A DNA stretch of 64,000 nucleotides. Source: Carcharhinus longimanus (taxonomy: Eukaryota). This document shows, one piece after another, positions 18,001 to 47,800 of the stretch. Made by a program: the position numbers. The stretch lies in contig JASCQW010000119.1 of the NCBI GenBank assembly GCA_030264375.1, positions 7,926,026 through 7,990,025 of the forward strand. The letters are read 5' to 3'. Within the stretch, counting starts at the first letter, position 1. Every line of letters starts with the position of its first letter.

Positions 18001-21000
18001 NNNNNNNNNNNNNNNNNNNNTTACGTAATAACTCACCGGAGAGACATGTTTAACATTTCGACATGAGCCTGGAACCACGCCTATTTCTGTTCAATTCCAT
18101 ACCAAATCCTTGCATACTATGCTTAATTTTCTGCTGTAACACCCTGCGGACCCGAGCATTGCAATACCCTGACGATGTTGTACAATAGATCACGAATTTT
18201 GTGAAGTATTGTATTGTAATTAAAACAAAGAAAAACATCTCAACGTGCTCGAATGATTGCCTCAGCACTTACAGCGCCATTCAAGTTCGAAAATAGCTCT
18301 GCTGCTCCTTGTCTTTTCATCAAGCACTCAATTAAGAAATGTGAAGCCCGCTTTATTTTCGTTCTTCTTTTTTCGGCCTTTTCCACCCTGTCGCAGTTTT
18401 GTTTTTCTTTTACCAAAGCGACTTACCTTGCGTTCTTTGTCCATAATCCCCATTATTTGGATGTCTGAGTAACGTGTGATATCAAAAATGTGAATTATCT
18501 GACTGCTTTTTTGTGTCGATCCGATTGACATTCGACTCTACAATATAGCACGGAACGTCCATTTAAAGTCACATACAGTCCCATAAGTATTCCAAACATG
18601 ATTACTTTGACAGCTGACATTCCAATGTTACAGGTGTTCCAAGCTGCAGCCCTGCGTTCCTTTGAAGGAAGTGGTTATATTTCCCTGTGTAGCACTCAAG
18701 TCTGTCGGGCAAATTCTTGAAATTTTCCCTCTAATGTGTTCACTGCAGCAATTTGGTTCACAACGCAGCAACTTGTTGAAACAGTTATCCTACTTCGTTC
18801 AGATAGGAAGACAGAACCCGACTGTTTTAACAGTTGGATGTGAATAAACGAATGACATTTTTCATTAGAGGCCAGATTGCTTCTAATATTCAGCGGTCAA
18901 TTACTATACTAATAAACTTGATGCAAAAAAAAGAAATGATATTTAAATATGACACGGTTTAATTCAACTGGCCAGCCATTCTCTCCAAATTATTTAACTT
19001 CATAATGTGCAGCGAATAGTTGTAAAGACAAGAGTATCAACTTTATTTCCTCAATAAAAAAAAACAAGTTATTTGTTTTACTTTACGTATTTCATTGAAT
19101 GCAATGCTACGTGTATTTTCAAATAGTGAACCAACATATGACCCTGACACAAGGTAAGTACAGTTACTCATTACATTTCTTAAGAAAATGTTTTTATCAT
19201 TAGATCATACAAATCCGATCCCAACGTCATCATTTTGTTCATTTAATCCCGATCTTACTTCCCTTCAGTTCTGTCGAAGGTCGAGAGGAGAGAAGCAGAT
19301 GAACGACGAGGATGTTACACTTGCCGTGGATCACATGCAATTACGGTGTCTGGGTGTTTCCCATAATTCATAATTAAGCTAAAAAAAAACATATTTTCTC
19401 CCCGTTACTCAGCCTTCCTTCATCGAAATCTGACCATCGCTGTGATTTATTAGAGTGCAAAAGAAGCACCAATAACTCGACCCCGGTGCTCGACTCCATT
19501 ACAACGCGGACGGAGACCAGAATTCATCCTTCCCCCATCCCACGAACCTGCCATTATCACAACCGGTATCGGACCTGGATTTCCACACTTTTTCTCTTTG
19601 TTTTTCCCCTATGTCCCCAGCTCTTCTTCCGACCACATCGGCTAGCACTAAATGTTCCTCATTCAACGGCCCACGAAGCTTTGACGTGCGACCTTCCTGC
19701 CACAGAGCTTAACTACAAACATCCCTCGATTCTTCGCATCGCTTATCTTCCATGAAAAGCGTGGAACTCAAACACCCAAAACAACCACTCCCTCGTTATC
19801 TGATGATTAAAAGCATCAGTCCAGTTTGCCCACCGGCGATGCCCAACAAACATGATGTCATACCTCTCTACATTATATCCAAACATTTTGACTGTTAACT
19901 TCGTATAAGTCTGTCGTTGCTCATTCCGCATTTGAACACAATTTACAGAAAACTGCTCCAATTAAACTGCGGCTTGCTTTTCTTCTCTACTATCCCTTTC
20001 GAACTGCATTTCCGATCCACGGAAGCAATGGGTTCCCGGGATCTCTGCAGTCCTAGTCTCAATGCTTGGCAATTCATTTCGCAACGATTTGCCAGGCTGG
20101 GACGCATACAATTTGATAAGGCTGAGTTGGAACTGAATGCACATCCGACACTGCATTCGACTTTTTTTTTACTTTCTTGCCCTGAACACCAAAAGATGAG
20201 ATGTTGCTACAGTTAACAAATTGTGGTCTTCATCATATTTTTCCATACCAGCATATTGATCCATAAGTTTCCTTCGAGTTTCTTTGGCCAACTTTGGTTC
20301 TGAAACAGTATTTCTTGACGTTTTCATTGGAGGAAGCCAGTCACAGCTGAAGTAAAAACAAATGCAGACGGGCACGGCATATTTTACATGACACAAGTAC
20401 AGCAAAATTCAGCAGACTTGCAGGCTTGCGGACGTGGTTTTTTTTCACTCATAGTAATGGCAATCCGTGCTGCGAATGTTTGCTGGACTGATGCCCTCCA
20501 CTATTATGAGTAGTGAGAATGATGCTTTTCGATTAAAATAATAATTTCCACACATTTCAATATTGTTCAAAACAATTGTTGTTAGCCTCTCCGAAGATCC
20601 GCCGGTAAAAATCGAGGTATACACGGTTATCTGTCTGGCTTTAAAGTTTGCTGAATATTTTCAACTTCAGAAAATAGCCGACTGCAAGATGAACTAAATA
20701 ATGCGGGTATGAAAACTGTTCAATGCATATAAATTTGTTTGTACTTAAGTAAGCAAGTGAGTTTCAGGCCAGCTGAAGGTTGTGTTGAAAGTAATCCCAT
20801 TCAACAATAGATCTAATGGAATATTAATCATGAAGTGCAATGGTTTTTAAATGTATTTTTTTTTTGATGGAAAATGGAACAATGACTACCAACGCCCGCT
20901 GTCTCTACAATACCATCCGACAATCTATTTTATGTTCGCCAATTCTCAGCTGTTTATATCGCTAGAACATTTCATCTTATGTCAGAGAAGAATAAATACA

Positions 21001-44800: not shown

Positions 44801-47800
44801 TTAAATGTTTTCATATATTTATATTTTTTATGTGTGCTCACATTTATTAAAGAACACATAATTATGTCCAATTCGTCTGACCTGTTAAATGTTTTTCACA
44901 TTAACTCTTTAATTTGTTGCGTCGGCCAATACAGTCAAATTCGCCAGCAGAAACCCAGAAAACAAAGCAAATCTGGAGCCACGGTAGAGGGCCAGAACAA
45001 TAAGAACCAAAAAAAAAACACGCACACATGATCACCTATTTGCAACTATGCATTAAATCTCAGAAGCTGCTCACCTGACCGACCTCACGAACGAACCGAA
45101 TAATGTATATATTGTCAGTCAGTAACCCCTGAGCTGAAGTAAATTCCAAACTGAATTTGGAATCCAGTTCAAATTCCAAATGCAATTGTCGTTGAACAAT
45201 TGGCCCGTTAGAATTAAATATAACCAGTGATATTACATTCACAAAATAAACACACATTAAAGACGAGACAAGAGTCATGCAGTTAATTGCAGGTGTCTCG
45301 AAACGGCCATTTATTCAAATGTCCTTCTAAATTATCAGGTTTGCAGGGCATTAGCTTCCCGATGTAAAATATCATAAGAAAACATACGGCTAAATAAAAT
45401 TGAACGACAGTGAAAACGGAGAGCGTGCAATATATAAAGAGGTTCAAGTGCTCAGCGTTAAACACCAATGACTAATAAGCACCGTGGATCGAAAACAGCA
45501 TTAATTTATGTGACTGCACCGGAAACAAGGTCAAGAAGTTCCATAACTGGCACAGAAAAACAAATCGACTGTTTTACCCCCTGACCGAACAAATTGAACG
45601 GGATGGTCAACAGACGCGTAAATAACTCAAAGACGAATTAATTACTGCTTTAAGTCTAATGGTATTATTAAGCATTATTACGTGTTTTTGTTCTGGTAAA
45701 CTGCCAAGATAGCGTTCATCGTTACACACGGAAAACATAAATATCTCCGAGTTGTCATGTCACAGTGAATAGTAACAATTTTATACATGGTTTATNNNNN
45801 NNNNNNNNNNNNNNNNNNNNNNNNNNNNNNNNNNNNNNNNNNNNNNNNNNNNNNNNNNNNNNNNNNNNNNNNNNNNNNNNNNNNNNNNNNNNNNNNNNNN
45901 NNNNNNNNNNNNNNNNNNNNNNNNNNNNNNNNNNNNNNNNNNNNNNNNNNNNNNNNNNNNNNNNNNNNNNNNNNNNNNNNNNNNNNNNNNNNNNNNNTGA
46001 CGACGTCAATTTCAATACGAGAAGAAGTTCACCAAACAAAACCATTCTGATTCCCACATTTGTACGCAAACATTACATATTCTTATCTTTTCCAGGCACA
46101 GCAAATCAATGGGCTGATTGCATCCACACTCGAGGTCACAGAGACGACTGCCTATGCCTCAAACCAGCGAATCAACATATTTAATGTTCGGTTGATTACC
46201 GAGCGGGCACATACTCCCTCTTTCTTTGGAGCCCCATGTAATAAAGGATACATCGTTTAATGTTTCTGTTCATAATTGCAAGCAGGGACTGCTGTGAAAG
46301 ACGTCTTTGCTCAAGCTGCTGAGCAGAATTTCCCATTCGTCCTCTAATGCACAATCCCTTCAGAGGTGGCGATGCGCCAAGCGAACACTGGTCTGCGAAT
46401 CTCACATGGAATCATCGCTCCAAGTCAGCAAGCTGTATTTTTTTTTATTCTGCTCGTTATTCGAATCTATTTAAATTGAGAAAATAGAAAATAAATGTTC
46501 ATTATTCGCTGCCAGTTTTCTGCTGTTGTATCATATGTGAAATTATTTTCTTCATAAGCCTTCCGCGAAATGAAAATGTCCATTTCTTTTCCTACAAATG
46601 ACCTTAGTAGTAAGTTCCAAATATCTTGTTCATTGCAACAGTAATTGGAAATATTTATAATTAATAATAAATTAATATTCTCGTATCTACTCGTTCTGTA
46701 AACGATGTAGATCACGTCAAAATATAGCCTTGTTTTGCATTTGCGTAATATCGAAAGGCCAGACTTCTCTAGGAACACAATCTTCTGTAATCCTGACGCA
46801 ATGACAACTTATTTTTCCCGGAATGTGCAGCTCCATCGAAACTTAGTCATCCATCAACATCGACATTAAGAGCACAGAGCAGTAAGCATTCAGAACGTGT
46901 TTGAATGCCACACAGAAAACTAAGTTTTCAAAAAGTGTCTGCTCCTAATTTACCAATAGATCTAATTAAAGTGCAAAGTAACGTGGGAAATATGAATCAA
47001 TTCAGGTGTTAACGTTGCCGTAAAATCACACTCCATCTCCAAAGCAAAGTGCTACTGCCACTCTGAATCAAACATATTACTGTTGAACACAAAATGCCGC
47101 ACACGCCTGCCGCTATCAGAGCTGTCTGCTATATTGCGAGGTCAATGATATTCTTGCTGCTGCAACCGGGGACACATTAGAAGGCCATTAGTACACATTA
47201 GTATACAGTGGTGGAAAAATTTCTAACAAATGACTACAACAGTAAGATGCATGCTGTTCAGTTGAAATTCGTGAATCACACGTGGTCGAAATCAATGAGT
47301 ATTTTTCATACAACATTTGAAGGTAAATTGCTTGAAGATCATATCTCGGGAATTGAAATAAAATCTGACAGATAGTGAAGTTATAATGAATTAACGTTGT
47401 CATATTCTTTCTTTTCAACATCGATACCATACTTTTATTCAATAGACCAGCGAGTGCTTGAGCTTAGAGAAGGTAAGACTAGCGGAATTACCCTGGCAAA
47501 GGACATTATGTTACATTAAGGCATAGGTAAATTACTATACCGACAGATTTTCCAACTGTGATTCAAATCCAGAAACGAAAAATAAACATATGTCCTCGAC
47601 TACTAATTAGATAAGAAACGGTTAGTTTGGTTGGCATGGGTGACTCAGTGCATATCTGCACCTTGTCGTTGGTGTGGACCAAGCGATATGCATGTTTATT
47701 CTGACTTGTGTGGTNNNNNNNNNNNNNNNNNNNNNNNNNNNNNNNNNNNNNNNNNNNNNNNNNNNNNNNNNNNNNNNNNNNNNNNNNNNNNNNNNNNNNN

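What the first reader, a model, noticed from the sequence alone, without database searches (positions are those of the whole stretch)
19850..47710. Old five-exon cassette duplication creates a 48-aa protein repeat, with exons held intact while introns drift
Seen: two collinear ~11-12-kb copies, each holding exons of 36+27+27+27+27 nt (ENSRLQDELNNA/ENTRLQNGLKNA, EYERKTLKQ/NDKLKQVQQ, EQLLQKKEQ/GKHLEKKEQ, ALDEKCPSS/AFDKKCPTT, DQRVIDLKE/NQRVLELRE). The introns are heavily diverged and full of indels and copy-specific insertions. All ten exons keep their length, AG/GT and open frame. The last pair differs at only 3 of 27 nt, all conservative (I/L, D/E, K/R). Inference: purifying selection on both copies, which is the best internal evidence that the gene is real.
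[Added by the scan's program, not by the reader: the finding's places include an assembly gap (unread letters, written N; its length is only estimated) at 22664 to 22739, 27187 to 27286, 34063 to 34072, 34909 to 35536, 40907 to 40994, 42852 to 42951. Whether the letters on both sides are continuous or in frame is not known: test that first.]
Basis: partly seen in the sequence, partly recalled or inferred. Interest (0 to 1): 0.68.

Follow-up and report, generated by a model that had tools for sequence, protein, structure and literature searches.

The report
Duplicated block of tiny exons
An old duplication copied a roughly 12-kb piece of an animal gene holding five (perhaps six) very small exons, and both copies still look able to be spliced in frame, which is a real but ordinary way for proteins to gain internal repeats.

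Summary
Two collinear, same-strand copies (A 19842-32227, B 36674-47714) align at 65-74% identity. No third copy is in the window. All ten exon-like segments exist: 36+27+27+27+27 nt in each copy, AG before, GT after, all phase 1-1. No N run touches an exon.

Exon identity (105 of 144 nt, 72.9%) is no higher than alignable intron (71.0%). E2 and E4 rank below 90% of gapless intron windows.

Three other signals point to real exons:
- Exon candidates picked from one copy by splice score alone keep AG, GT and length in the other copy in 5 of 11 and 4 of 12 cases. Minus-strand controls give 1 of 9 and 0 of 8; background is 1.5-2.5%.
- pN/pS is 0.45, reached by 2% of intron draws.
- Only one reading frame is open in all ten exons.

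A possible sixth exon pair (24461-24496 / 41890-41925) was missed. The gene is unidentified: the exons are too short for single-exon searches, and the joined model was not searched.

The parts
19842..32227 (+). Copy A of the duplicated segment (12.4 kb)
   Evidence: Collinear BLAST chain to copy B; edges from word-7 BLAST
36674..47714 (+). Copy B of the duplicated segment (11.0 kb; right edge hidden by the N run 47715-48508)
32228..36673 (+). Unique spacer between the copies; in the model it is the intron between A5 and B1. It holds the N runs 34063-34072 and 34909-35536.
   Evidence: No similarity to the sequence after copy B or before copy A beyond E about 1; no coil-like exon candidate
20671..20706 (+). 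Exon A1, 36 nt, phase 1-1 (whole codons NSRLQDELNNA)
   Evidence: AG/GT; acceptor 91st and donor 97th percentile; 80.6% identical to B1
22038..22064 (+). Exon A2, 27 nt (YERKTLKQ)
   Evidence: acceptor 99.9th percentile; 59.3% identical to B2; the 12 intron bases from donor +3 to +14 are identical in both copies
24461..24496 (+).
   Evidence: Acceptor score 12.5, donor 7.1; AG/GT and length kept in B, gapless in the BLAST HSP. But pN 0.37 and pS 0.48, and gapless in only 1 of 4 unanchored alignment settings
25993..26019 (+). Exon A3, 27 nt (QLLQKKEQ)
   Evidence: weak acceptor (63rd percentile), yet the 12 bases upstream of the AG are identical in both copies
28193..28219 (+). Exon A4, 27 nt (LDEKCPSS)
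   Evidence: both sites above the 99th percentile; 59.3% identical to B4; K-C-P kept
31956..31982 (+). Exon A5, 27 nt (QRVIDLKE)
   Evidence: 88.9% identical to B5; second most conserved 40-column window
37364..37399 (+). Exon B1, 36 nt (NTRLQNGLKNA); ends in A before GT
   Evidence: donor only 80th percentile
38713..38739 (+). Exon B2, 27 nt (DKLKQVQQ)
41890..41925 (+). Candidate sixth exon BX, 36 nt (VKVYKEEITDL)
43371..43397 (+). Exon B3, 27 nt (KHLEKKEQ)
   Evidence: acceptor 75th, donor 84th percentile
43811..43837 (+). Exon B4, 27 nt (FDKKCPTT); ends in A before GT
47446..47472 (+). Exon B5, 27 nt (QRVLELRE)
26146..27906 (.). Copy-A-specific insertion in intron 3 (2173 nt in A, 413 nt in B); holds the N run 27187-27286
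   Evidence: Absent from the HSP chain. A minus-strand ORF at 27145-27525 looks like a reverse-transcriptase piece by eye, but Pfam found no match
21103..21159 (.). Most conserved block of the duplication, in intron 1; partner at 37734-37788
   Evidence: The 40-column window 21099-21138 is 92.5% identical; alignment; no Rfam match; no stable fold

Best explanation
A plus-strand protein-coding gene of an animal genome underwent an old internal tandem duplication of about 12 kb of gene body. The piece carried a run of very small exons: 36+27+27+27+27 nt, possibly with a further 36-nt exon between the second and third.

Every exon is a multiple of three and starts and ends in phase 1. The duplicated block therefore fits into the reading frame wherever it lands, and any subset of the exons can be spliced in without a frameshift. 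If both blocks are included, the protein gains a second, 52%-identical copy of a 48-residue segment (60 with the sixth exon). The segment is K/L/Q/E-rich and low in Gly, Pro and aromatic residues, so probably alpha-helical.

Since the duplication, substitutions have accumulated in the exons about as fast as in alignable intron. Changes that would break splicing, exon length or the frame have been removed, and replacement changes are somewhat under-represented.

Shown: the duplication, the ten exon-like segments, their excess retention, and the single shared open frame.
Inferred: that they are spliced, that both cassettes sit in one mRNA, the helical nature of the segment, and unequal crossing-over within introns as the mechanism.
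For: - Duplication: collinear HSP chain, E-values down to 1e-163. Copies at about 70% identity cannot be allelic or an assembly duplicate.
- Splice signals: 10 of 10 segments have AG and GT. On a consensus matrix recalled from memory, acceptor scores fall at the 63rd-99.9th percentile and donor scores at the 80th-99.6th percentile of all AG/GT sites in the window.
- Test with candidates picked from one copy only: 5 of 11 (from A) and 4 of 12 (from B) keep AG, GT and a gapless length in the other copy. Minus-strand controls give 1 of 9 (antisense inside E5) and 0 of 8. All windows give 67 of 2685 on plus and 49 of 3261 on minus. Binomial P for 5 or more of 11 is 1.1e-4 at a 5% base rate.
- Exon lengths: plus-strand candidates pile up at 27 nt (12) and 36 nt (6), against 3 and 0 on the minus strand.
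- Frame: only offset 2 is open in all ten segments. All nine junction codons are sense codons.
- Codon pattern: pS 0.466, pN 0.210; differences by codon position are 14, 6, 14. The control frames give pN/pS of 0.85 and 2.42. The intron-window null reaches the observed ratio in 2.0% of 20000 draws under two different alignments.
- Unanchored alignments keep E1, E4 and E5 gapless and in register in 4 of 4 scoring settings, E3 in 3 of 4 and E2 in 2 of 4.
- Intron next to splice sites: 88 of 120 bases identical against a 64% null, P = 0.048.
- Composition: exons are purine-rich, 8 of 10 at 0.63 or more against a 0.50 regional mean. E, K, Q, R, D, N and L make up 65 of 86 residues.
Against: - Sequence identity of the exons (72.9%) is not above intron (71.0% at aligned columns; 68.9% in gapless 27-nt windows). 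E2 and E4 are among the least similar gapless windows. Combining the five rank values by Fisher's method, worked by hand from the ranks, gives P of about 0.1.
- Conserved AG..GT gapless windows are common by chance: 77 on plus and 53 on minus.
- The selection signals are small-sample: 43 codons, P about 0.02, and 0.048 for the flanks.
- No further exons of the gene could be shown. Outside the duplication, microexon candidates are as frequent on minus as on plus (10 against 8, and 25 against 25).
- Copy B has weaker signals (B1 donor 80th percentile, B3 75th and 84th).
- There is no transcript, orthologue or protein-database support of any kind.
Confidence: 0.68

Rival explanations
1. The two cassettes are alternatives, not a tandem repeat. 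After the duplication the gene uses block A or block B (or skips one). It would then make isoforms with one 48-residue segment of two possible sequences, as with tandemly duplicated exons spliced in a mutually exclusive way.
For: Both blocks have the same total length and the same phase at both ends, so either choice stays in frame. The copies are diverged enough (20 of 43 whole codons differ) to give distinct isoforms. Tandem duplicated exon substitution is a described class (PMC9741552; abstract seen in the listing).
Against: Nothing in the DNA shows mutual exclusion. Described cases, as far as I recall, are mostly single exons rather than five-exon blocks. The A5-to-B1 junction gives a sense codon (GAA), so joint inclusion is also in frame.
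Confidence: 0.17
2. Only one copy still works. Copy B, with the weaker splice signals, is decaying into pseudo-exons and is skipped.
For: The B1 donor is at the 80th percentile. The B3 acceptor and donor are at the 75th and 84th. B1 and B4 end in A instead of G before GT.
Against: All five B segments keep AG, GT, length and the open frame at a divergence where only 1.5-2.5% of AG..GT windows keep both dinucleotides in gapless register. A3 in copy A is as weak as B3.
Confidence: 0.1
3. There is no gene. The ten segments are chance AG..GT windows inside duplicated non-coding DNA, picked out after the fact.
For: Exon identity equals intron identity. Chance gives 53-77 conserved AG..GT windows per strand. 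No flanking exons could be supported. There is no external support.
Against: The one-copy test (5 of 11 and 4 of 12, against 1 of 9 and 0 of 8 on the other strand). Four pairs share exactly 27 nt. One frame is open in all ten. The codon-position pattern and pN/pS are reached by 2% of nulls.
Confidence: 0.08
4. The two copies belong to two neighbouring paralogous genes, not to one gene.
For: The 4.4-kb unique spacer and the N runs could hide a gene end and a gene start.
Against: Homology starts only about 830 nt before exon 1, which has an acceptor and so is not a first exon. Nothing start-like or end-like was found in the spacer. This was not searched for specifically.
Confidence: 0.04

Closest known systems
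Internal tandem duplication of symmetric exons as a source of protein repeats (textbook cases recalled, not checked here: tropoelastin, titin PEVK, nebulin, collagens)
   Same: Exons that are multiples of three and of equal phase; duplication through the introns; the repeat unit of the protein equals the exon block.
   Different: Here the unit is a block of five or six very small exons spread over about 12 kb. There are only two copies, about 30% diverged. The gene is not identified.
Micro-exon genes (MEGs) of schistosomes (PMC4350168, passages read; PMC4015677, passages read)
   Same: Runs of very small symmetrical exons, so exons can be left out without changing the frame. Exon duplication is reported in the MEG-3 family.
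   Different: MEG products carry a signal peptide, and the family is said to be restricted to platyhelminths. No signal-peptide exon was found here and the organism is unknown. Whether microexons make up most of this gene cannot be told from the window.
[quoted passage not shown]
   Same: Exons of 27 bp that are tandemly repeated and so encode a repeat in the protein.
   Different: No sequence comparison was possible. The repeat unit here is 144 (or 180) nt made of unlike exons, not 81 nt.
Tandem duplicated exon substitution / mutually exclusive exons (PMC9741552, abstract seen)
   Same: Homologous duplicated coding units of equal length and phase lying in tandem.
   Different: A multi-exon block rather than a single exon. 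Mutual exclusion is not shown.

Membership tests
Intragenic tandem exon-block duplication | Two homologous copies, same orientation, collinear, at one locus | tested here: met
   HSP chain; edges
Intragenic tandem exon-block duplication | Duplicated exons keep splice sites, length and a common frame | tested here: met
   10 of 10 AG/GT; offset 2 open in all ten; retention above background
Intragenic tandem exon-block duplication | Both copies are part of one transcript | not testable with these tools
   No transcript data. The A5-to-B1 junction codon is GAA, so it is possible
Micro-exon genes (MEG) | Very small symmetrical exons | tested here: met
   Ten (or twelve) exons of 27 or 36 nt, all phase 1-1
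Micro-exon genes (MEG) | Microexons make up most of the coding region, framed by longer end exons | tested here: inconclusive
   No flanking exons could be supported in 36 kb of flanks
Micro-exon genes (MEG) | Product has a signal peptide; secreted or membrane-anchored | not tested
   First exon not found
Micro-exon genes (MEG) | Platyhelminth gene | not testable with these tools
   Organism unknown. GC 40% and CpG observed/expected 0.80. A search with a LINE piece gave two unnamed hits only
Mutually exclusive duplicated exons | Equal length and phase of the alternatives | tested here: met
   144 nt and phase 1-1 for both blocks
Mutually exclusive duplicated exons | Only one alternative per mRNA | not testable with these tools
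   No transcript data
Coiled-coil / long alpha-helical repeat protein | Heptad pattern or predicted helix over the spliced segment | not tested
   This needs the joined exons, which were left out. Only pooled composition was measured: 65 of 86 residues are E, K, Q, R, D, N or L

The most novel reading that the evidence does not exclude
The block belongs to a gene built largely or wholly from 27- and 36-nt symmetric exons, a micro-exon gene in the schistosome sense, and it grows by copying whole multi-exon blocks. The near-neutral sequence drift, with strict retention of length, phase and splice sites, would then mean that selection acts on the ability to mix and match exons rather than on the peptide itself. 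If the organism is not a flatworm, this would extend micro-exon genes beyond the group to which they are said to be restricted.
Probability: 0.15. Interest if true: 0.55.

Novelty: new member of a known kind. Interest (0 to 1): 0.28.

Why it matters
For annotation: 27-nt exons separated by 1-5 kb introns are easily missed by gene finders. The paralogous comparison gives internal evidence for ten of them and a lead to two more.

For evolution: this is a clean example of selection preserving exon length, phase and splice sites while the encoded sequence drifts at close to the intron rate. That is what one expects of a low-complexity helical spacer or of exons kept for combinatorial splicing.

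It does not open a new question. Repeat growth by duplication of symmetric exons is well known.

Tried and rejected
- External search, exon by exon: the protein search tool takes no query under 40 aa and the exons give 8-12 aa, so I stopped (one search was an out-of-range E-value).
- Joined (spliced) 48-aa model: not built, searched or folded. Gene identity, coiled-coil prediction and orthologue counts therefore stay open.
- Third copy: nhmmer profiles of each exon plus or minus 150 columns against the rest of the window gave nothing below E = 1.
- Extension of the duplication into the spacer or beyond copy B: none found.
- Further microexons in the flanks (for example 3590-3625, 17715-17744, 49737-49772, 57877-57903, 59921-59947, 61109-61144): no strand excess, so not claimed.
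- My first global alignment used cheap gaps. A shuffled intron then aligned at 70-71% identity, so its identity baseline is void. I replaced it with BLAST-HSP columns. The ranks and the one-copy test came out nearly the same.
- In one search the HSP that covers E3 was not kept in the chain, probably because it overlaps the next HSP by a few B bases. E3 is therefore scored 'not conserved', which is conservative.
- In one search, E1 was missed because of an end-gap artefact.
- Rfam (0 matches) and tRNA scan (0) over the window.
- The conserved intron block: no stable fold, z from +0.36 to +0.94. On the minus strand only 16 residues are shared between the two ORFs.
- Pfam on ten ORFs gave one match above its cut-off (endonuclease-reverse transcriptase at 7645-8001) and two weak ones below cut-off.
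- A LINE-piece search to place the organism gave two unnamed hits. They were not followed.
- Four paper searches named no gene with this exon pattern. One look-up failed because the paper is not held.
- A frame-breaking conserved AG..GT pair in intron 1 (21291-21327 / 37898-37934): mediocre donors, taken as chance.

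
Full report
WHAT THE WINDOW IS
The window has 40% G+C, a CpG observed/expected ratio of 0.80 and 13 N runs. It carries one Pfam-supported endonuclease-reverse transcriptase piece and a weaker reverse-transcriptase match, and CA microsatellites. 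There are no Rfam or tRNA matches. It looks like intron-rich animal DNA from a draft assembly. Its CpG content is far from the value I recall for mammals, and I do not take it for human. The organism stayed unknown: a search with a LINE piece gave only two unnamed hits, which I did not follow.

GAPS FIRST
- Seven N runs lie within 19850-47710. These are the six in the program's note plus 45796-45997.
- None touches an exon or a splice site. The nearest are 243 nt after B5 (47715) and 420 nt before B3 (42951).
- Four sit in segments with no BLAST match in the other copy (22664-22739, 27187-27286, 40907-40994, 42852-42951), two in the unique spacer (34063-34072, 34909-35536), and one in a shared intron (45796-45997).
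- On both sides of the gaps inside the copies the HSPs stay in order and orientation with the other copy. This supports the scaffold layout.
- The 202-N run at 45796-45997 faces 192 nt of copy A (30186-30377). That stretch holds no exon candidate.
- The 100-N run at 42852-42951 is flanked by two 108-bp stretches that are 92.6% identical. This looks like unmerged contig ends or a local repeat.
- The exons are joined by splicing, so the frame does not depend on gap lengths. Whether a gap hides an exon is unknown.

THE OBSERVATION
- Self-BLAST gives a collinear, same-strand chain between 19886-32162 and 36719-47652, at 64.6-73.8% identity with E-values to 1e-163.
- A word-7 BLAST puts the edges at A 19842-32227 and B 36674-47714. 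It finds nothing shared in the 4.4-kb spacer or beyond.
- nhmmer profiles of each exon region find no third copy; all hits have E of 1 or more.
The true exons therefore start and end one base to the right and are all phase 1-1.
- All 10 of 10 have AG and GT. Lengths are 36, 27, 27, 27, 27 in both copies. Pairwise identities are 80.6, 59.3, 74.1, 59.3 and 88.9%.

IS IT MORE THAN CHANCE?
Gapless windows with AG before and GT after in both copies number 77 on the plus strand and 53 on the minus strand.

My first global alignment was too permissive. A shuffled intron aligned at 70-71% identity. I therefore rebuilt all baselines on BLAST-HSP columns:
- Intron identity is 71.0% at aligned columns, with 28.3 gap openings per kb.
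- 7281 of 12386 copy-A bases are alignable.
- 45.9% of 27-column windows and 36.3% of 36-column windows are gapless.

Against gapless windows of equal size, E5 ranks in the top 2.1% and E1 in the top 5.7%. E3 is at 36%, and E2 and E4 are at 90%. So, taken together, the exons are not more similar than intron (105 of 144 = 72.9%). The most conserved 40-column block is intronic.

Retention of splice sites and length is what stands out. I scored every AG and GT with a consensus matrix (frequencies recalled from memory, used only for ranking). I took as candidates windows from one copy alone with both sites at or above the 85th percentile, a length that is a multiple of three, and phase 1-1 open. 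I then asked whether the other copy has AG and GT in gapless register:
- From copy A: 5 of 11 (A1, A2, AX, A4, A5).
- From copy B: 4 of 12.
- Minus strand: 1 of 9 (antisense inside E5) and 0 of 8.
- All windows: 67 of 2685 (plus) and 49 of 3261 (minus).
- Binomial P for 5 or more of 11 at a 5% base rate is 1.1e-4.

E3 is scored as not conserved here because its HSP was not kept in the chain. That makes the test conservative.

Further support:
- Candidate lengths peak at 27 nt (12) and 36 nt (6) on plus, against 3 and 0 on minus.
- Only one frame is open in all ten segments, and all nine junction codons are sense.
- In 4 unanchored scoring settings E1, E4 and E5 are always gapless and in register, E3 in 3 and E2 in 2.
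- The 12 intron bases next to each splice dinucleotide are 88 of 120 identical against a 64% null (P = 0.048).

SELECTION ON THE PROTEIN
- Over the 43 whole codons, taken exon by exon with split codons left out, pS is 0.466, pN is 0.210 and dN/dS is 0.34.
- Differences by codon position are 14, 6 and 14.
- The other two frames give pN/pS of 0.85 and 2.42.
- Sets of one 36-nt and four 27-nt gapless intron windows, open in both copies, reach a ratio this low in 2.0% of 20000 draws. The result is the same with both alignments.
- 20 of 43 residues differ.
- This is a real but weak sign of constraint. E5 has no synonymous change at all, which may point to constraint on the RNA as well as on the protein.

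A POSSIBLE SIXTH EXON
A 24461-24496 and B 41890-41925 are both 36 nt and phase 1-1. They have strong sites in both copies (scores 12.5/7.1 and 5.7/5.5), and AG, GT and length are kept. Against it: identity is 64%, pN is 0.37 and pS is 0.48, and it is gapless in only 1 of 4 unanchored settings. I rate it at about even odds. With it, the unit would be 180 nt, or 60 residues.

WHAT IT IS AND HOW IT WORKS
The best reading is an old intragenic tandem duplication of a block of symmetric microexons. At aligned intron columns about 29% of bases differ. The global alignment gave 27%, which corresponds to 0.34 substitutions per site by the Jukes-Cantor correction. The duplication is therefore old, but I give no age because the organism and its substitution rate are unknown.

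Because all exons are phase 1-1 and multiples of three, the copy is in frame by construction. The encoded residues are mostly K, L, Q, E, N, R and D (65 of 86), with few G, P or aromatic residues (5 of 86). The exons are purine-rich. This fits a charged helical segment, and also purine-rich splicing enhancers of the kind small exons are thought to need (recalled). K-C-P in exon 4 is kept in both copies.

The helical reading is therefore an inference from composition. The gene could not be named, because the single exons are below the 40-aa minimum of the protein search.

COMPARISON WITH WHAT IS KNOWN
Repeat growth through duplication of symmetric exons is textbook (recalled: tropoelastin, titin PEVK, nebulin). 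The nearest architecture in papers I could read is the schistosome micro-exon genes. Most of their coding region consists of very small symmetrical exons, exon skipping does not change the frame, and an exon duplication is reported in MEG-3. They are said to be restricted to platyhelminths and always carry a signal peptide (PMC4350168, passages; PMC4015677, passages). [quoted passage not shown]

The exon-size and symmetry feature is met here. The signal peptide, the share of the coding region and the taxon could not be tested. I therefore do not file this as a MEG. Microexons are defined in two abstracts as 3-27 nt (listing), so the 27-nt exons sit at that limit.

VERDICT
This is a real, old duplication of an exon block, of a well-known kind, in an unidentified gene. 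Its interest lies mainly in annotation, and in showing that length, phase and splice sites are preserved without sequence conservation.

Noticed in passing
21103-21159 and 37734-37788: The best-conserved block of the whole duplication lies in intron 1, about 400 nt after exon 1. The 40-column window 21099-21138 is 92.5% identical, more than any exon except E5. There is no Rfam match and no stable fold. On the minus strand it has AG and a GTAAG-type donor 22 nt apart in both copies, and 16 shared residues between two ORFs.
   Followed up: partly
It shows no sign of amino-acid constraint.
   Followed up: yes
42744-42851 / 42952-43059: The 100-N gap is flanked on both sides by 108-bp stretches that are 92.6% identical. 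These are probably unmerged contig ends or a local tandem repeat, so intron 2 of copy B may be about 200 nt shorter than written.
   Followed up: no
45796-45997: A 202-N run inside the finding's span that the program's note does not list. It faces 192 nt of copy A.
   Followed up: yes
8315-11493: A tandem repeat of about 1.43 kb (roughly 2.2 copies, 84-87% identity), interrupted by the gap 8938-9037. By eye, a minus-strand ORF inside it looks like a LINE endonuclease piece; this was not tested. Strong 30-nt AG..GT candidates recur at 9736-9765 and 11159-11188.
   Followed up: no
22562-22638, 60509-60585, 12802-12896: An interspersed repeat. The first two copies are 93.5% identical, inverted, and both lie next to assembly gaps. 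This suggests a young repeat family that breaks the assembly.
   Followed up: no
68-639: Internal repeats of about 190 bp at the left end of the window (70-77% identity).
   Followed up: no
35934-35994, 41808-41838, 52491-52554, 63464-63537: CA/TG microsatellites. They cause the short self-BLAST hits between these places.
   Followed up: no
25981-25992 / 43359-43370 and 22067-22078 / 38742-38753: The acceptor side of exon 3 has no pyrimidine tract, yet the 12 bases before the AG are identical in both copies. The 12 intron bases from donor +3 to +14 of exon 2 are also identical. These are possible binding sites for splicing factors.
   Followed up: partly
21291-21327 / 37898-37934: A conserved AG..GT pair of 37 nt (or 19 nt) in intron 1, with fair splice scores in both copies. 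It would break the frame if included. It is probably chance, given the mediocre donors.
   Followed up: partly
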